Part shown: piece after piece, positions 32 to 17,287 of the stretch
Layout: every line of letters starts with the position of its first letter
Position numbering within the stretch: the first letter of the stretch is position 1
Notes under the pieces: generated by a model
Seen by the model: the letters and a program-made list of their open reading frames with translations, nothing else
The model's database searches: none
What the model was told of the DNA's origin: nothing
Made by a program: the position numbers and the translations under genes
IMG/VR virus record: IMGVR_UViG_2713896795_000005
Location: 1-17,287 of that record
Reading direction: 5' to 3' (one strand)
DNA length: 17,287 nucleotides
From: a virus
Taxonomy: Duplodnaviria > Heunggongvirae > Uroviricota > Caudoviricetes

Positions 32-3676
<3,645 letters not shown>

Positions 3677-3748: not shown

Positions 3749-3919
3749 ATGGCTATGGATATTATGTCAGGTGCAAACCTAAAAGTAGAAGTAGGTACAA
3801 GTGCTGGTAACACACTAGCGACCGACTTTAAAGAAGTTCCCGAAGTTGCTAGCTTTACTACTTCTGGCTTTGAATCAGTTGTTATAGACGTAAAAACTTT
3901 CAACTCTTCATATAACCGT
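3749..3919 (+). CDS. Exon 1 of intron-containing small tail protein (putative major tail/tube protein by position)
   Basis: ATG 3749 preceded by AAGGAA (3734-3739). Unspliced reading stops at TAA 3923-3925 after 58 codons. Homologous to the fibre N-terminal domain (EVASFTTSGFESVV vs [13 protein letters not shown]). Confidence 0.6.
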
Positions 3920-4189
3920 GGATAAAATAGCGGCCTATAGTAGCAATACTATTTGAATAACTCCTTTAATTGCTGGAAACTCTTATTATTAAGTTAAAGA
4001 CAATCAGCAGCGAAACCATATTATATGGAACGTTCAACGACTAGCCGAAAGGCGTAGGGATTAAGTAATCTCGAAATGGGGAGAATCCGAAATATCGGAT
4101 TGTGATATAGTCTAATCTGTATAGAAATATGCAGCAGTCATAAAGACCGATGACGATGTAGTATTAACGCCACTACATGAATAAAAATG
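3920..4189 (+). ncRNA. Group I self-splicing intron, ~270 nt, no homing endonuclease ORF
   Basis: Conserved core elements: P AATTGCTGGAAAC (3968-3980), Q AATCAGCAGCG (4002-4012), R GTTCAACGACTAG (4032-4044), S GATATAGTCTAA (4104-4115). P4 pairing TGCTG/CAGCA and P7 pairing GACTA/TAGTC. 5' exon ends in U3919 with a candidate guide GCGG (3930-3933) pairing CCGU. Intron ends ...AAAAATG (G4189), like the T4 td intron 3' end. In-frame stops sit at both intron ends (TAA 3923-3925, TGA 4178-4180). Confidence 0.75.
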
Positions 4190-4477
4190 AAATTGCTCGG
4201 CACAAAATCGATCCCTGATATTGAACTAAGTGTTAACTATCTTGCGGATAATACAGTACACCAACAATTAGAGACTCTCGCAGACGAGCAAAAACGCTGT
4301 CAGATTCGTCTAAGCTACTATACTGATGCAACCCACACTACTGGTTTTTATGTAGTTTATACTTGCTTCGTTAGTTCCACTACTATTGATGGCGACAAAG
4401 ATGAAGTAGTAACTAAAGCATTCAACCTAGCTGTAGACGGTGCAGCCGTTGAATCAGGTACACTACCTTCTATCTAA
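4190..4477 (+). CDS. Exon 2 of intron-containing small tail protein
   Basis: Same frame as exon 1; removing 3920-4189 (270 nt) joins ...SSYNR to KLLGTKSIPDIELSVNYL..., collinear and gap-free against the fibre N-domain (...SSGYSEKLLAEQDIGNIEVVVNYL...). Shared GDKD-x-VVTK motif near the C-terminus. Stop TAA 4475-4477. Confidence 0.6.
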   Translation, partial: KLLGTKSIPDIELSVNYLADNTVHQQLETLADEQKRCQIRLSYYTDATHTTGFYVVYTCFVSSTTIDGDKDEVVTKAFNLAVDGAAVESGTLPSI

Positions 4478-13536: not shown

Positions 13537-13863
13537 ATGGCAGGATGGGAAAATATAATTGCCGTCATAATAGCTTTGGGTGCTTTTATTTGGAATCTCA
13601 TTAGAGATAAATTCGCAGACTTTAAAACACTTGAATCACGACTGGCTAAAATAGAATCAGATTTAGCACATACTAAATCGGACGTAGAAAGGTTAGAAAA
13701 GGGTCAGGATGATTTAGAATCAGCACTCAATGATTTACGTTCTCAGATTCATTCAATGGATCTAAAAATAGAACGAGTGATAGCAATATTAGAAAAAAAT
13801 AAGGGGCTTATTGCCCCTTTTCTTTTTGCTATTTGTTTACTAATTGATAAATCATATCTTTAA
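13537..13863 (+). CDS. Membrane-anchored coiled-coil protein (lysis-associated candidate: i-spanin-like or holin-like)
   Basis: N-terminal TM segment (IIAVIIALGAFIWNLI) followed by a predicted heptad-rich helical region. The 3' end reads through the terminator hairpin and overlaps the convergent lysozyme gene by 35 nt. Paralogue of the frame-split ORF at 15968-16218. Confidence 0.55.
   Translation: MAGWENIIAVIIALGAFIWNLIRDKFADFKTLESRLAKIESDLAHTKSDVERLEKGQDDLESALNDLRSQIHSMDLKIERVIAILEKNKGLIAPFLFAICLLIDKSYL
13801..13828. terminator. Bidirectional rho-independent terminator shared by convergent genes
   Basis: AAGGGGC (13801-13807) / GCCCCTT (13813-13819) hairpin; + strand followed by TTTCTTTTT, - strand followed by ATTTTTTTC. 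Confidence 0.6.
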
Positions 13864-14281
13864 CGCGGTTAGGTGTCTGACGATACCATAGACTATCTTT
13901 AGCCTGAATAATCGCCCCCTTCCAATCCTTGCGGTGTAGTGCTGCAATCATCTTCTTGAACTTCTTAACACCACCTAAACCCAACTGAAAGGCCATAATA
14001 ACTAAGAAGTCTTGCCAGTCCTTCGGTAAGTCCAAGCCCAATGTTTTAACATCCTTGATAGTACGGTCAATATCCCATGCCAGTAGTAAATCTGCATCAA
14101 TGGCACTGATACCGTTTTTGTACTTTTCGATTTCATTAGGTAGGATCTTATGTCCGTAACCGATTGTAGCGTACCCTTCGGTATCCACATATGGGTAGAA
14201 CTTGTCTTGTCGATAGTATCCGCGTACTCGTTGGTATTCTTTAGTACCTTCATATAGTTTTAATCTTTCTTTAATGTCCAT
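13829..14281 (-). CDS. T4-type lysozyme (glycoside hydrolase family 24 endolysin)
   Basis: Close match to the T4 lysozyme pattern: E11 in LKLYEG, DTEGYATIGYGH (T4 DTEGYYTIGIGH), SLWYRQTPNRVKDM (T4 SRWYNQTPNRAKRV). No signal peptide. Confidence 0.85.
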   Translation of the reverse strand: MDIKERLKLYEGTKEYQRVRGYYRQDKFYPYVDTEGYATIGYGHKILPNEIEKYKNGISAIDADLLLAWDIDRTIKDVKTLGLDLPKDWQDFLVIMAFQLGLGGVKKFKKMIAALHRKDWKGAIIQAKDSLWYRQTPNRVKDMIYQLVNK

Positions 14282-14319: not shown

Positions 14320-14757
14320 ATGGTGTGGGATATGTTTGATCCAGAAGTCTGGAATATAAAAGATGTAGATTCTGGCAACTATGCCGCATTTGTTTACTTA
14401 ATTCAGTTTGATAATGGTAGTTGGTATATTGGTATGAAACAGATATATCAGGGCGTTAAAGATATTAAAAAATTAAAGTCCAGTACCAAACAATCGAACT
14501 GGAAGGACTACACATCAAGTAGTAGAACAGTAAATGCCTTAATTGACGCAGGGGAGGACTATAAAAAGTATGTTCTATGGTGTTTCCCTACTGCGAACCA
14601 AGCAAGCATAGTAGAAACGGCCTTAATCGCTACGAGTGGACTACTACCGCATAATCTGAATAAAGCCATACTTGCAAAGGCAAGACTACCAGCGAGCGAT
14701 ACAGACGCGTTAAAGCTATTTAAAATTGTAAAAGGACTAATAGGATCTCTAACATGA
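14320..14757 (+). CDS. Hypothetical protein, possible GIY-YIG nuclease-like fold
   Basis: FVYLIQFDNGSWYIG gives a V-Y-L ... (9 aa) ... Y-I-G spacing like GIY-YIG motifs; later IVETALI and PHNLN could supply the Glu and Asn. No clear catalytic Arg. AAGGA SD; stop overlaps the next start. Confidence 0.4.
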   Translation: MVWDMFDPEVWNIKDVDSGNYAAFVYLIQFDNGSWYIGMKQIYQGVKDIKKLKSSTKQSNWKDYTSSSRTVNALIDAGEDYKKYVLWCFPTANQASIVETALIATSGLLPHNLNKAILAKARLPASDTDALKLFKIVKGLIGSLT

Positions 14758-15335: not shown

Positions 15336-15656
15336 ATGAATTTAGAAGAACATCACTATGGGGAGGAAGTTAACGAGATTACATTAGATGGGGTAACACC
15401 ATTTGGTAATTCATATCAGTTCGAACTTTTTCAACTAGACAATAAGAAAATAAAAAAGAAAGTTAAAACTTTTGCACCTGATATTAAAACTTATATGAAT
15501 GTAGTTTTCTCCTATAAGCAATCACAGTGGACTGATGGGGATATACTAACATGGACGTATAAAAGTATACCCTTTGAAGTAGTGCTACTCGATTCACATT
15601 TTATCAGTGTTAAGGGTAAACATTTCTATCAATATGTAATAGGAGTAAAAAAATGA
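15336..15656 (+). CDS. Hypothetical protein
   Basis: 106-aa ORF starting 4 nt after the upstream stop. No family recognised. Confidence 0.5.
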   Translation: MNLEEHHYGEEVNEITLDGVTPFGNSYQFELFQLDNKKIKKKVKTFAPDIKTYMNVVFSYKQSQWTDGDILTWTYKSIPFEVVLLDSHFISVKGKHFYQYVIGVKK

Positions 15657-15946
15657 TTAGTATCTTAGTAGAACTATTAAAATCTGGTATGGATTTTTTC
15701 ATCAGGAAAAAAATAGTGGAAAAAGAAGTTCAGAAAACTAACGCCGAAGGACAAATAGAAGTAAACAAAGAAGAAATTGAAAGAGTATCATTTCACTGGC
15801 GTAACACACTTGGATTTGTGTTAACTATGATTGTGGCTTACAACTGGTTAATAGTACCGCTGCTAGATGCGTTTGGAATTGTAGTTATTCAAGTCCCATT
15901 AGGAGAATTGCTTACTATCCTACAAATCATGATTGGCGGAGTATAA
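15653..15946 (+). CDS. Small membrane protein (two C-terminal hydrophobic helices)
   Basis: 97-aa ORF overlapping the upstream stop (ATGA). Hydrophilic N-terminal half, then two hydrophobic segments (GFVLTMIVAYNWLIVPLL, IVVIQVPLGELLTILQIMIGGV). Confidence 0.5.
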   Translation: MISILVELLKSGMDFFIRKKIVEKEVQKTNAEGQIEVNKEEIERVSFHWRNTLGFVLTMIVAYNWLIVPLLDAFGIVVIQVPLGELLTILQIMIGGV

Positions 15947-15967: not shown

Positions 15968-16218
15968 ATGGACTACATCGCGTTAGGGGGGCTATTAATG
16001 GCTTTTTTACATTTATGGCTCGTCTACTCTATAGACGAAAACAAGAGATCTTAGAAGCTGAAAGACGTATAAGTGATATTGAAAGTATGCTTCTAGTATT
16101 AGAAACTAAAATAGAAAGTAATGAAGCAGATATTGATGAATTGTATGATTTAGTACGGGATTTATCAAAAATAAAAAGTGACACTTCAAAAATTAAAGGA
16201 ATATTAAAATCTAAATGA
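15968..16218 (+). pseudogene. Frame-disrupted paralogue of the 13537-13863 coiled-coil membrane protein
   Basis: A 28-codon ORF (15968-16054, MDYIALGGLLMAFLHLWLVYSIDENKRS, AAGGA SD) carries the TM helix. The coiled-coil part is in the -1 frame (ORF 16015-16218). One extra A in the A4 run at 16038-16041 would give a single ORF collinear with the paralogue. Confidence 0.5.
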
Positions 16219-16219
16219 A

Positions 16220-16246
16220 GCCCCTTATGGGGCGTTCACTTTTATT
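16220..16246. terminator. Palindromic GC hairpin with flanking T-rich tracts
   Basis: GCCCC (16220-16224), loop TTAT, GGGGC (16229-16233), then GTTCACTTTTATT on the + strand. The - strand side is also T-rich, so it may serve the convergent - strand genes too. Confidence 0.5.
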
Positions 16247-16318: not shown

Positions 16319-16564
16319 TTATTCACATTTCCATATGGTATTTTGTACACCCGTACCGGCGGGTAGATGTGGGTTAACATTAGCACTATGTGTATAGGTT
16401 GCTTTTGATTTTCCATATTGCTTACATGCGGCATCTGCTGTCTTCTGTAAGCTATCTAACCCGTACCATCCGTCTGATTGGATACTGACTGTTTTACCAT
16501 CGTTGTACTGAACCATTGCACAACCAGATACAAGGATTGACATTGCAAATACTATTTTTTTCAT
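16319..16564 (-). CDS. Small lipoprotein, probably outer-membrane (candidate Cor/Llp-type exclusion lipoprotein)
   Basis: Signal peptide MKKIVFAMSILVSG-C with lipobox V-S-G-C and Ala at +2; mature part ~66 aa with two further Cys, one next to the C-terminus. AAAGGG SD upstream on the - strand. Confidence 0.65.
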   Translation of the reverse strand: MKKIVFAMSILVSGCAMVQYNDGKTVSIQSDGWYGLDSLQKTADAACKQYGKSKATYTHSANVNPHLPAGTGVQNTIWKCE

Positions 16565-16606
16565 CCTAAGACCCTTTAATTTATTATTTTATATTCTGTA
16601 GTGTTT

Positions 16607-17287
16607 TTATTTTCTTTCATAACAAAATACATCTTCAAATCTTATCTCTAAATTATTATAAATTTCTATAGCATTTTTATAATTGATGTTTATTTGTTCG
16701 TTGTTTTTTTGCCAACAAAAGTATCTATTAAAATAGGTCATGTCAATTGCAGACTTAATGAAATCTTGAATGCTCTCTCTGGTATTATCTGCGGCTGTGA
16801 TGTAATTAATATACTCTATTTCTGCCTTGCAGTGCATATCCCACGAACCTAACGTTTTTATCTCCACTAATAATTGTGCGACCTCAATATTTAAAGATCT
16901 GCTAAGATCTAATAATTCATTGGCTATATTTTTCATTTTTGTATTTTCAGTTGGAGATAATTCTTTGCACTGTGAGTATTCATCGCAGAAGTTATCATAT
17001 CCACTTTTAAGTGAATGAAGTTTTATAAATGATTGAGTCATGTTCATTAGTATTTTTTCTGCATGTTCAAAACCTTTATTTTTGACTCTATCTTTCAACC
17101 AGTTACGAACACTTAAGGCTGCATATATTGCAGACCCAGCAACTACAGTATCCATAATGGCAGAAACAGTACTGCTTGTAAATTCATGTAAAAATAATAC
17201 ATCTAAGTAGATTGCTGTCAATACACCAAGACTGAAGTACATAATATGTGAAAATTCTATTTTATCAACTAAGACTCTAATATTCAT
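16607..17287 (-). CDS. Membrane protein with two N-terminal TM helices and a ~160-aa soluble domain, unknown function
   Basis: 226-aa ORF whose ATG sits on the last three bases of the window, so the true start may lie beyond it. Hydrophobic segments MYFSLGVLTAIYLDVLFL and AIMDTVVAGSAIYAALSV. Roughly 20-30% GC by spot counts of two 60-nt lines, versus ~30-50% in two tail-gene lines. Confidence 0.55.
   Translation of the reverse strand: MNIRVLVDKIEFSHIMYFSLGVLTAIYLDVLFLHEFTSSTVSAIMDTVVAGSAIYAALSVRNWLKDRVKNKGFEHAEKILMNMTQSFIKLHSLKSGYDNFCDEYSQCKELSPTENTKMKNIANELLDLSRSLNIEVAQLLVEIKTLGSWDMHCKAEIEYINYITAADNTRESIQDFIKSAIDMTYFNRYFCWQKNNEQININYKNAIEIYNNLEIRFEDVFCYERK

What the first reader, a model, noticed from the sequence alone, without database searches (positions are those of the whole stretch)
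16319..17287. AT-rich - strand cargo: lipoprotein plus 2-TM membrane protein, a candidate superinfection-exclusion module
The last ~1 kb is transcribed opposite to the structural genes and is much more AT-rich than the tail genes by spot counts of a few lines. It encodes an 81-aa lipoprotein with a clean lipobox, preceded by a 226-aa protein with two N-terminal TM helices and a soluble domain I cannot place in any family. Small outer-membrane lipoproteins encoded beside tail genes are the signature of Cor/Llp-type receptor-blocking exclusion proteins. The membrane protein could be a second exclusion or abortive-infection factor.
Basis: partly seen in the sequence, partly recalled or inferred. 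Interest (0 to 1): 0.65.

Follow-up and report, generated by a model that had tools for sequence, protein, structure and literature searches.

The report
Prophage-end cargo: YecR-like lipoprotein, membrane protein
The last kilobase of this prophage carries two real but independent accessory genes, an outer-membrane lipoprotein whose closest known relative is the flagellar-ring lipoprotein YecR (not Cor or Llp) and a two-helix inner-membrane protein, in a swap-prone spot that holds known anti-phage genes in related prophages, so a protective role is likely but untested.

Summary
Both ORFs are real and full length. The 81-aa protein has a textbook lipobox (LVSGC, Cys15, Ala at +2). Its mature domain is under strong purifying selection (omega about 0.04-0.10). 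The 226-aa protein has an N-terminal two-helix hairpin and a predicted cytoplasmic four-helix bundle.

They are not a fixed module. Only 1 of 80 viral lipoprotein loci carries the membrane gene, and 1 of 10 membrane-gene loci carries the lipoprotein. The lipoprotein (phrog_7757) also sits in P1-like phage-plasmids and Klebsiella lambdoid prophages.

The site lies between the last conserved late gene and the prophage-host junction. In relatives this spot holds AbiGi, PD-T4-7, Abi_alpha-like genes and an orphan methylase.

A spanin pair is rejected. Only the membrane gene is AT-rich (GC 0.30); the lipoprotein gene is not (0.39).

Verdict: genuine prophage cargo in a defence hotspot, with an anti-phage role inferred by association. 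The Cor/Llp label is not supported. Interest is moderate.

The parts
16319..16564 (-). 81-aa prolipoprotein gene (phrog_7757). The mature protein is 67 aa with a beta-beta-alpha-beta-beta fold and conserved Cys47/Cys80.
16520..16534 (-). Lipobox codons L11-V-S-G-C15. Cys15 is at 16520-16522. Ala16 at +2 is not a Lol-avoidance residue, so outer-membrane sorting is predicted.
   Evidence: Direct reading of the sequence. The lipobox is conserved while the rest of the signal peptide varies (24% against 83% pairwise identity). The +2 sorting rule is established knowledge for Enterobacterales.
16565..16606 (-). 42-bp spacer between the two genes, with a Shine-Dalgarno-like AAGGG 7 nt upstream of the lipoprotein ATG. 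No terminator lies between the genes, so co-transcription is likely.
   Evidence: Sequence read. No terminator-like site was found here. Co-transcription is an inference.
16607..17287 (-). 226-aa inner-membrane protein gene. It is complete, and its promoter lies beyond the window end.
   Evidence: ORF. 36 homologues of 212-250 aa. Alignment A2. AF2 pLDDT 82.4.
17108..17251 (-). Conserved two-helix transmembrane hairpin (aa 13-60) with polar residues in the membrane (D29, H34, S38, T40, S42, D46, T47).
   Evidence: Hydropathy and charge: +3 after TM2, 0 at the N-terminus, -1 in the loop. 72% mean pairwise identity against 31% for the rest. Weak DUF4231 (SLATT-type) hits on this part in 5 of 36 members.
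16610..17107 (-). Fast-evolving C-terminal domain (aa 61-226), predicted to be a cytoplasmic four-helix bundle. Some relatives carry a different domain here.
16220..16233 (.). GC-rich hairpin (GCCCC-TTAT-GGGGC) that serves as a convergent, bidirectional terminator between the plus-strand late genes and the minus-strand cargo.
   Evidence: Terminator scan: 2 found against 0.6 expected. The same hairpin is conserved in L001.
15653..15946 (+). 97-aa 3TM holin-like gene. It is the last conserved gene of the late operon and marks the inner edge of the variable cargo slot.
   Evidence: GTA_holin_3TM at E 1.7e-4, below the Pfam cutoff. Annotated as '3TM-type holin' in an E. coli relative. Conserved at this position in all related prophages, while what follows varies.
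16015..16218 (+). 67-aa coiled-coil ORF with no TM segment, between the holin-like gene and the terminator. It is present at this position in only a few relatives.
   Evidence: ORF. Only sub-threshold coiled-coil hits. Found at this position in L001. A 44%-identical copy lies elsewhere in L020 and L041.

Best explanation
Window 16319-17287 is a two-gene accessory cassette at the very end of a temperate siphovirus prophage of Enterobacterales. It lies in a hypervariable slot between the last late gene (holin-like, 15653-15946) and the prophage-host junction. The two genes are independent, separately mobile units that happen to be joined here in one minus-strand transcription unit.

Gene 1 (16319-16564) makes a small lipoprotein that is lipidated at Cys15. 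It is sent to the inner leaflet of the outer membrane and folds into a disulfide-stabilised beta-beta-alpha-beta-beta domain of the YecR type. By analogy with YecR, which clamps onto the outside wall of the FlgH barrel, and with Llp, which binds FhuA from the periplasm, it most likely binds a conserved outer-membrane protein assembly from the periplasmic or inner-leaflet side and changes what can pass through it. Blocking entry of other phages is the most likely benefit.

Gene 2 (16607-17287) makes an inner-membrane protein. Its conserved polar two-helix hairpin is the likely effector, either as a pore or leak or as a block of a membrane channel. Its rapidly diverging cytoplasmic helical bundle is the likely sensor or specificity domain. 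This is the layout of a single-protein abortive-infection or exclusion factor.

Shown here: the genes, lipobox, topology prediction, fold, family distribution, independence of the two genes, purifying selection, and hotspot content.

Inferred: outer-membrane location, disulfide, binding to an outer-membrane partner, expression in the lysogen, and any anti-phage effect.
For: - Real genes under constraint. The lipoprotein mature domain has pN 0.03-0.16 with saturated pS, giving omega 0.04-0.10. For the 226-aa protein, the hairpin has omega 0.10-0.17 and the C-domain 0.21-0.63.
- Lipobox and Cys15 are invariant, and position +2 is Ala.
- Sequence: mature-domain hhalign to YecR scores 25.6, E 1e-3, with the helix Cys and the C-terminal Cys aligned. 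Llp, Cor and Bor controls score 8.6-10.9, E 0.35-0.63.
- YecR is a lipidated outer-membrane protein bound to each FlgH subunit (read, bioRxiv 10.1101/2020.12.05.413195).
- Independence of the two genes: 1 of 80 lipoprotein loci and 1 of 10 membrane-gene loci in IMG/VR have both. Enterobacter remnants keep the membrane gene alone. A Serratia prophage keeps the lipoprotein alone.
- Hotspot content in the same slot: AbiGi at PADLOC E 1.6e-45, PD-T4-7 at E 3.3e-25, an orphan methyltransferase, DUF2806/Abi_alpha and DUF4238.
- Position at the prophage-host junction. The membrane gene is retained in degraded prophages.
- Precedent that sequence-diverse small lipoproteins of temperate coliphages exclude phages by receptor: PMC11893012.
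Against: - No functional data exist for either family. No PADLOC, Pfam or NCBIfam model matches either protein.
- Guilt by association in a hotspot is weak evidence. Such slots also carry non-defence cargo.
- The YecR link rests on a predicted model plus a weak profile match (probability 21% once the signal peptide is removed).
- The full-length profile score is inflated by the signal peptide, as the Llp, Cor and Bor controls show.
- No convincing promoter could be identified. It lies outside the window, and the scan of the 88%-identical locus was no better than chance. Expression in the lysogen is therefore unproven.
- The SLATT-like hint for the hairpin is sub-threshold and could be a compositional effect.
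Confidence: 0.5

Rival explanations
1. Classical Cor/Llp-type self-exclusion. The lipoprotein blocks the very receptor used by this phage's own tail, which prevents superinfection and stops progeny being inactivated on cell debris.
For: It is a small outer-membrane-type lipoprotein in a temperate siphovirus and is transcribed independently of the late operon. Receptor-specific lipoproteins of unrelated sequence exist in other coliphages.
Confidence: 0.15
2. Lysogenic-conversion factor for host fitness rather than phage defence. Examples would be Bor/Iss-like serum resistance, envelope stabilisation, or immunity against a periplasm-acting toxin or lysozyme.
For: Its position after the lysis-type genes on the opposite strand mirrors lambda bor (established knowledge; the lambda region was read). 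The mature domain is very strongly conserved across genera, which suggests a conserved host or competitor target. The gene is widespread in clinical Klebsiella and E. coli plasmids.
Against: There is no sequence similarity to Bor. Nothing in the neighbourhood points to virulence. The neighbours in other loci are anti-phage genes.
Confidence: 0.2
3. The lipoprotein is a functional YecR mimic that docks on the flagellar L-ring (FlgH). It would alter motility or block flagellotropic phages.
For: YecR is the best structural match, the lipid Cys aligns in the full-length comparison and the two other Cys in the mature-domain comparison. YecR binds FlgH. A yecR knockout scored as lambda-infection-defective in a genome-wide screen (PMC2900299).
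Confidence: 0.07
4. The pair is the phage's spanin system (i-spanin plus o-spanin) or another lysis component.
For: It is a membrane protein followed by a small lipoprotein, close to a holin-like gene and an endolysin.
Against: - The genes are on the opposite strand from the late genes.
- They co-occur in only a few loci.
- The upstream protein has two TM helices with a predicted cytoplasmic C-domain, not a single TM with a periplasmic coiled coil.
- The lipoprotein is a folded, disulfide-bonded domain with 3% proline.
- The lipoprotein also sits in early or accessory regions of P1-like and lambdoid elements.
- A better lysis-accessory candidate (108 aa, TM plus coiled coil, weak Rz-like hit) lies next to the endolysin.
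Confidence: 0.03

Closest known systems
YecR (E. coli b1904; Salmonella YecR in PDB 7bgl), Pfam PF13992
T5 Llp (PDB 8a60_B, 7qjf_A)
   Same: It is a phage-encoded small lipoprotein that would act from the periplasmic side of the outer membrane. This is the mechanism I think most likely.
Cor of phi80, N15 and T1
   Same: It is a small lipoprotein of a temperate siphovirus.
   Different: Similarity is limited to the signal peptide. Cor lies inside the tail-fibre cluster and is co-directional with it. This gene lies in the terminal cargo slot on the opposite strand.
Lambda Bor (Iss family)
   Same: It is a lipoprotein gene placed after the lysis region and transcribed against the late operon. That is classic 'moron' placement.
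   Different: There is no sequence similarity in the mature part.
SLATT/DUF4231-type two-TM effectors and single-gene Abi proteins (for the 226-aa protein)
   Same: It has an N-terminal two-helix hairpin with polar residues and a variable soluble domain, and it sits in a defence hotspot. Five of 36 family members give weak DUF4231 hits over the hairpin.
   Different: All hits are below the Pfam cutoff (12-16 bits against 24.7). There is no linked nucleotide-signalling enzyme and no PADLOC match.

Membership tests
Cor (phi80/N15/T1 exclusion lipoprotein) | Sequence homology of the mature protein to Cor | tested here: not met
   BLASTP, HMM and hhalign against phi80 Cor align only the signal peptide and lipobox. 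Mature-only hhalign scores 9.7, E 0.44.
Cor (phi80/N15/T1 exclusion lipoprotein) | Gene embedded in the tail-fibre/J cluster of a phage that uses the blocked receptor | tested here: not met
   The gene is 4 kb and about nine genes from the J-like gene, on the opposite strand. The same protein occurs in P1-like and lambdoid elements.
Cor (phi80/N15/T1 exclusion lipoprotein) | Blocks FhuA-dependent phage adsorption | not testable with these tools
   This needs adsorption and plating assays.
Llp (T5 lytic-conversion lipoprotein) | Sequence or fold homology to Llp | tested here: not met
Llp (T5 lytic-conversion lipoprotein) | Divergent gene pair with the receptor-binding protein gene | tested here: not met
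   T5 llp abuts oad. Here the neighbours are a 226-aa membrane protein and a 67-aa ORF.
Bacterial lipoprotein (Lgt/Lsp/Lnt substrate, outer-membrane sorted) | N-terminal signal peptide with a [LVI][ASTVI][GAS]C lipobox, and a non-Asp residue at +2 | tested here: met
   The sequence reads MKKIVFAMSILVSG|C-A. Cys15 is invariant in alignments A1 and A3. Actual acylation and sorting cannot be tested here.
YecR family (PF13992) | Match to the family HMM at the curated threshold | tested here: not met
   The window protein has no PF13992 hit at E<=1. One of 33 distant relatives hits it at E 0.004.
YecR family (PF13992) | Shared fold and Cys framework | tested here: met
YecR family (PF13992) | Binds FlgH of the flagellar L-ring; flagellar regulon member | not testable with these tools
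   The only indirect evidence is against it: the protein is common in Klebsiella and Raoultella, which lack flagella by general knowledge.
Two-component spanins (Rz/Rz1 type) | i-spanin with one N-terminal TM helix and a periplasmic coiled-coil domain | tested here: not met
   There are two TM helices. The charge distribution puts the C-domain in the cytoplasm, and that domain is a four-helix bundle.
Two-component spanins (Rz/Rz1 type) | Obligate co-occurrence of the two genes in the lysis cassette | tested here: not met
   The two genes co-occur in 1 of 80 and 1 of 10 viral loci. They are on the opposite strand to the late genes.
SLATT / DUF4231 two-TM effectors | Match to a SLATT-clan HMM at threshold | tested here: not met
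   The window protein has no hit. Five of 36 relatives hit DUF4231 at E 0.012-0.18, scoring 12-16 bits against a cutoff of 24.7, always over residues about 2-68.
Known anti-phage defence proteins (PADLOC-DB 2.0) | Match to any defence HMM | tested here: not met
   Neither protein has a hit at E<=1. Other genes in the same slot do match: AbiGi and PD-T4-7.

The most novel reading that the evidence does not exclude
YecR-fold lipoproteins may be a general class of inner-leaflet 'barrel-wall binders'. Temperate phages of Enterobacterales would then have captured and minimised one to mask or lock a conserved outer-membrane machine from inside the membrane. That would be an exclusion mechanism distinct from Llp and Cor, and it would give the first functional handle on the orphan protein YecR. 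In parallel, the 226-aa protein would found a new single-gene abortive-infection family, with a conserved SLATT-like pore hairpin and a hypervariable cytoplasmic sensor.
Probability: 0.2. Interest if true: 0.7.

Novelty: new variant of a known kind. Interest (0 to 1): 0.42.

Why it matters
- Prophage-end cargo slots are a productive place to find new anti-phage genes. This slot mixes validated systems (AbiGi, PD-T4-7) with two uncharacterised families.
- The lipoprotein family is widespread. It is found on about 300 plasmid records, mostly 90-115 kb non-mobilizable phage-plasmids of E. coli and Klebsiella, and in many prophages. In the rows listed it is mostly left unannotated.
- It is conserved far more tightly than its carriers, so it probably targets something important and invariant in the enterobacterial envelope.
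- If it blocks phage entry, it bears on phage-therapy host-range failures in Klebsiella and E. coli.
- If it really is a YecR relative, it offers a route to the unknown function of YecR.

Tried and rejected
- Megablast and tblastn of the region and of both proteins against 50,697 phage records found nothing. The families appear to be confined to prophages and phage-plasmids, or the collection lacks relatives.
- Profile searches of PDB sequences gave only chance-level hits for both families.
- Foldseek against AFDB50 was unavailable.
- BFVD gave no informative viral match for the lipoprotein. The one hit was an 'uncultured Caudovirales lipoprotein' at E 9e-4.
- Full-length hhalign to YecR (probability 54-66%) looked good. 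The Llp, Cor and Bor controls then showed that the signal peptide alone gives 33-45%. I redid the comparison on mature domains and rely on that result.
- The search for related loci with the divergent alignment A3 failed because no stretch was conserved enough.
- Cluster look-up of distant lipoprotein relatives gave only anonymous metagenome singletons.
- Promoter scans were no better than shuffled sequence.
- The spanin-pair idea was considered seriously and rejected (see rival explanations).
- Weak DUF4012, TrbL_4, Ntox50 and HEF_HK hits were treated as noise.

Full report
**Observation**

The ATG of the longer ORF is the last triplet of the window. Its 36 homologues are 212-250 aa and begin at the same residue, so the protein is complete and only its promoter is missing.

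The 81-aa protein starts MKKIVFAMSILVSG|CA, a canonical lipobox. Cys15 is invariant in 36 close and 33 distant relatives. Ala at +2 predicts release to the outer membrane by the Lol rule known for Enterobacterales.

The 226-aa protein has two hydrophobic segments, with peaks at residues 15 and 40. Net charge is +3 right after the second segment, 0 at the N-terminus and -1 in the six-residue loop. Both termini, and therefore the whole 165-residue soluble domain, should be cytoplasmic.

The AT-richness claim is only half right. The region has GC 0.319 against 0.381 elsewhere, in the lowest 4.6% of equal-sized windows. The dip begins about 1 kb earlier on the plus strand. The lipoprotein gene itself is 0.394. 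The membrane gene (0.297) and the spacers carry the signal. A GC-rich hairpin at 16220-16233 is a convergent terminator between the two transcription directions.

**Setting**

The window is the tail-to-end part of a temperate siphovirus. It contains:
- a fibre with an S74 chaperone domain;
- a tail assembly chaperone and a tape measure protein;
- a pb9-like distal tail protein, a hub protein and a DUF6950 protein;
- a J-like tip protein;
- an endolysin, a GIY-YIG endonuclease and a 3TM holin-like protein.

It has no close cultured relative. The best hit for the tip protein is 29% identical.

Related elements are integrated in chromosomes of Serratia, Kluyvera, Pseudescherichia, Phytobacter, Mangrovibacter, Enterobacter and E. 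coli. In these loci the holin-like gene is the last conserved gene. Host genes begin 1-3 kb further on. The finding therefore occupies the terminal cargo slot next to the prophage-host junction.

**The two genes are not a module**

I ran tblastn over all fetched loci.
- Of 80 IMG/VR loci with the lipoprotein, about 19 belong to this prophage family. About 45 place it upstream of the phage pol III theta (hot) and humD genes of P1-like phage-plasmids, directly upstream in many. The rest are lambdoid or other elements. Only one has the membrane gene next to it.
- Of 10 viral loci with the membrane gene, all at the end of this prophage family, one has the lipoprotein.
- Enterobacter prophage remnants keep the membrane gene alone.
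- A Serratia prophage keeps the lipoprotein alone, beside AbiGi.
- Klebsiella lambdoid prophages carry the lipoprotein in their early region.
- tblastn finds the lipoprotein on 301 plasmid records, mostly 90-115 kb non-mobilizable plasmids of E. coli and Klebsiella. The two plasmid loci inspected are P1-like.

The pairing occurs in the window and in about five other loci (L001/L002, L003, L020, L041; inverted order in L028). This alone excludes an obligate two-component system such as spanins.

**The lipoprotein**

It belongs to phrog_7757, of unknown function (E 2.5e-45).

Signal peptides differ freely (24% pairwise identity), while the mature 67 residues are 83% identical across genera. Synonymous sites are saturated while pN is 0.03-0.16, giving omega about 0.04-0.10.

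An exhaustive HMM search of 1.8 billion representatives found only 48 clusters. Nearly all are 50-130-aa proteins. The full-length ones aligned are lipoproteins sharing C15, A43, C47, G51, A55 and C80.

AlphaFold gives a confident beta-beta-alpha-beta-beta domain (pLDDT 82.8).

Profile-profile comparison with YecR aligns the lipid Cys, the helix motif A-x-x-A-C-x-Q-x-G and the C-terminal Cys. Cor, Llp and Bor reached 33-45% probability through the signal peptide alone. I therefore repeated the test on mature domains:

| Target (mature domain) | hhalign score | E-value |
|---|---|---|
| YecR | 25.6 | 1e-3 (44 columns) |
| Llp | 8.6 | 0.63 |
| Cor | 9.7 | 0.44 |
| Bor | 10.9 | 0.35 |

The YecR link is thus specific but weak at sequence level and rests mainly on the predicted fold. 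It does not meet the Pfam YecR threshold.

Cor, Llp and Bor are excluded as relatives. Llp structures are in the PDB but are not among the top 60 matches.

**The membrane protein**

The hairpin region (residues 13-75) is 72% identical on average. It carries conserved polar residues (D29, H34, S38, T40, S42, D46, T47). The C-terminal domain is 31% identical, has five- to six-fold higher dN, and is replaced outright in P0093/P0094.

Five of 36 members give sub-threshold DUF4231 (SLATT-type) hits over the hairpin.

A second, faintly related family of '2TM plus helical domain' proteins occupies the same slot in other prophages.

A conserved membrane element with a fast-evolving cytoplasmic domain, kept even in decayed prophages, fits a sensor-effector defence protein. 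It fits a periplasm-facing injection blocker less well, because the periplasmic loop is six conserved residues.

**The slot**

In relatives the same position holds:
- AbiGi (PADLOC E 1.6e-45);
- PD-T4-7 (E 3.3e-25);
- a DUF2806/Abi_alpha protein;
- a DUF4238 protein;
- an orphan DNA methyltransferase.

This is the main support for an anti-phage reading of the two unknowns. It is evidence by association only.

**Mechanism, with likelihoods**

I commit to the following reading, at about 0.5 overall. The cassette protects the lysogen.
- The lipoprotein acts from the inner leaflet of the outer membrane on a conserved envelope machine and hinders phage entry.
- The membrane protein acts at the inner membrane as a single-gene abortive-infection or exclusion factor.

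Rivals:

| Rival reading | Probability | Main point |
|---|---|---|
| Non-phage fitness factor (Bor-like or immunity-like) | 0.2 | Position resembles lambda bor |
| Classical self-receptor blocking (Cor/Llp logic) | 0.15 | Weakened because the same protein travels with unrelated tails |
| FlgH docking like YecR | 0.07 | Weakened by abundance in non-flagellate Klebsiella and Raoultella |
| Spanins or other lysis component | 0.03 | Genes co-occur in only a few loci; wrong topology |

**Comparison and novelty**

In mechanism the lipoprotein probably works like Llp, as an outer-membrane lipoprotein acting on an outer-membrane protein. In ancestry and fold its nearest known relative is YecR. It is a member of neither family by the tests run.

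I found no paper in the held library linking YecR-like proteins to phages.

I rate this a new variant of a known kind (prophage moron or defence cargo), of moderate interest.

**Side finding**

Rfam detects a full-length group I intron at 3910-4134 (81.9 bits). Its P1 pairing suggests splicing after U3919. Joining 3749-3919 to 4190-4477 gives a 152-aa protein that matches the major-tail-protein family phrog_158 continuously across the junction (E 5.6e-20).

Noticed in passing
window 3749-4477 (intron core 3910-4134, +): A full-length group I catalytic intron (RF00028, 81.9 bits, E 7.5e-20) interrupts what looks like the major tail protein gene. Joining 3749-3919 to 4190-4477 (5' exon ends in U, intron ends in G) gives a 152-aa protein that matches phrog_158 'major tail protein' across the junction (E 5.6e-20). 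The splice sites are inferred, not proven.
   Followed up: partly
window 32-3676 (+): The 1214-aa 'tail fibre' ORF begins with a major-tail-protein-like domain (phrog_158, aa 15-404, E 3e-23). This is followed by fibre repeats and a C-terminal S74 intramolecular chaperone. It looks like a tube-protein/fibre fusion sitting just upstream of the intron-containing tube gene.
   Followed up: no
window 14320-14757 (+): A free-standing GIY-YIG (SegE-like) homing endonuclease gene lies between the endolysin and the conserved late genes. It is conserved at this position in most relatives.
   Followed up: no
window 13829-14281 (-); compare L010 10836-11288 and L025 7682-8125: The endolysin gene is inverted relative to the late operon in the window and in most relatives. 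It is co-directional with the late operon in the Serratia (L010) and Mangrovibacter (L025) prophages.
   Followed up: no
window 13537-13863 (+): A 108-aa protein with an N-terminal TM helix, a coiled coil and a hydrophobic C-terminus overlaps the 3' end of the endolysin gene. It has a weak Rz-like spanin hit (phrog_739, E 1e-4), and the E. coli relative is annotated DUF2730. It is a better lysis-accessory candidate than the genes in the finding.
   Followed up: partly
L004 8001-8491; L039 5740-6208; about 45 of the IMG/VR loci L049-L119: In P1-like phage-plasmids the lipoprotein gene sits upstream of, and co-directional with, the pol III theta homologue (hot) and humD. The gap is about 8 bp in many loci and 0.4-1 kb in others. 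Under the listed plasmid matches RefSeq and PLSDB mostly show no annotated gene. In Klebsiella lambdoid prophages theta lies about 1 kb upstream instead. The reason for the linkage is unknown.
   Followed up: partly
L010 7786-7995; L021 4786-4995; L024 5263-5487; L027 5270-5479; L028 1434-1640: A 68-74-aa soluble protein (MTDEQFEENYP...) repeatedly travels next to the lipoprotein, on either side of it. It has no family match.
   Followed up: no
L017 7834-8586; L025 5287-6030; L026 5292-6002; L028 1687-2520: A second family of '2TM plus helical domain' proteins (236-277 aa) occupies the same prophage-end slot. It is only faintly similar to the 226-aa protein (BLASTP 1e-4 to 1e-7). In L017 both types sit side by side.
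   Followed up: partly
L005 10066-10419: E. coli SI-NP020 carries a related prophage next to mdtG. Its copy of the membrane gene is cut down to 117 aa: the hairpin is kept and most of the C-domain is deleted.
   Followed up: no
whole window: The prophage is about 38% GC. No cultured phage in the collection is close: the best tip-protein match is 29% identical, to the 141-kb Escherichia phage DCP80.
   Followed up: partly
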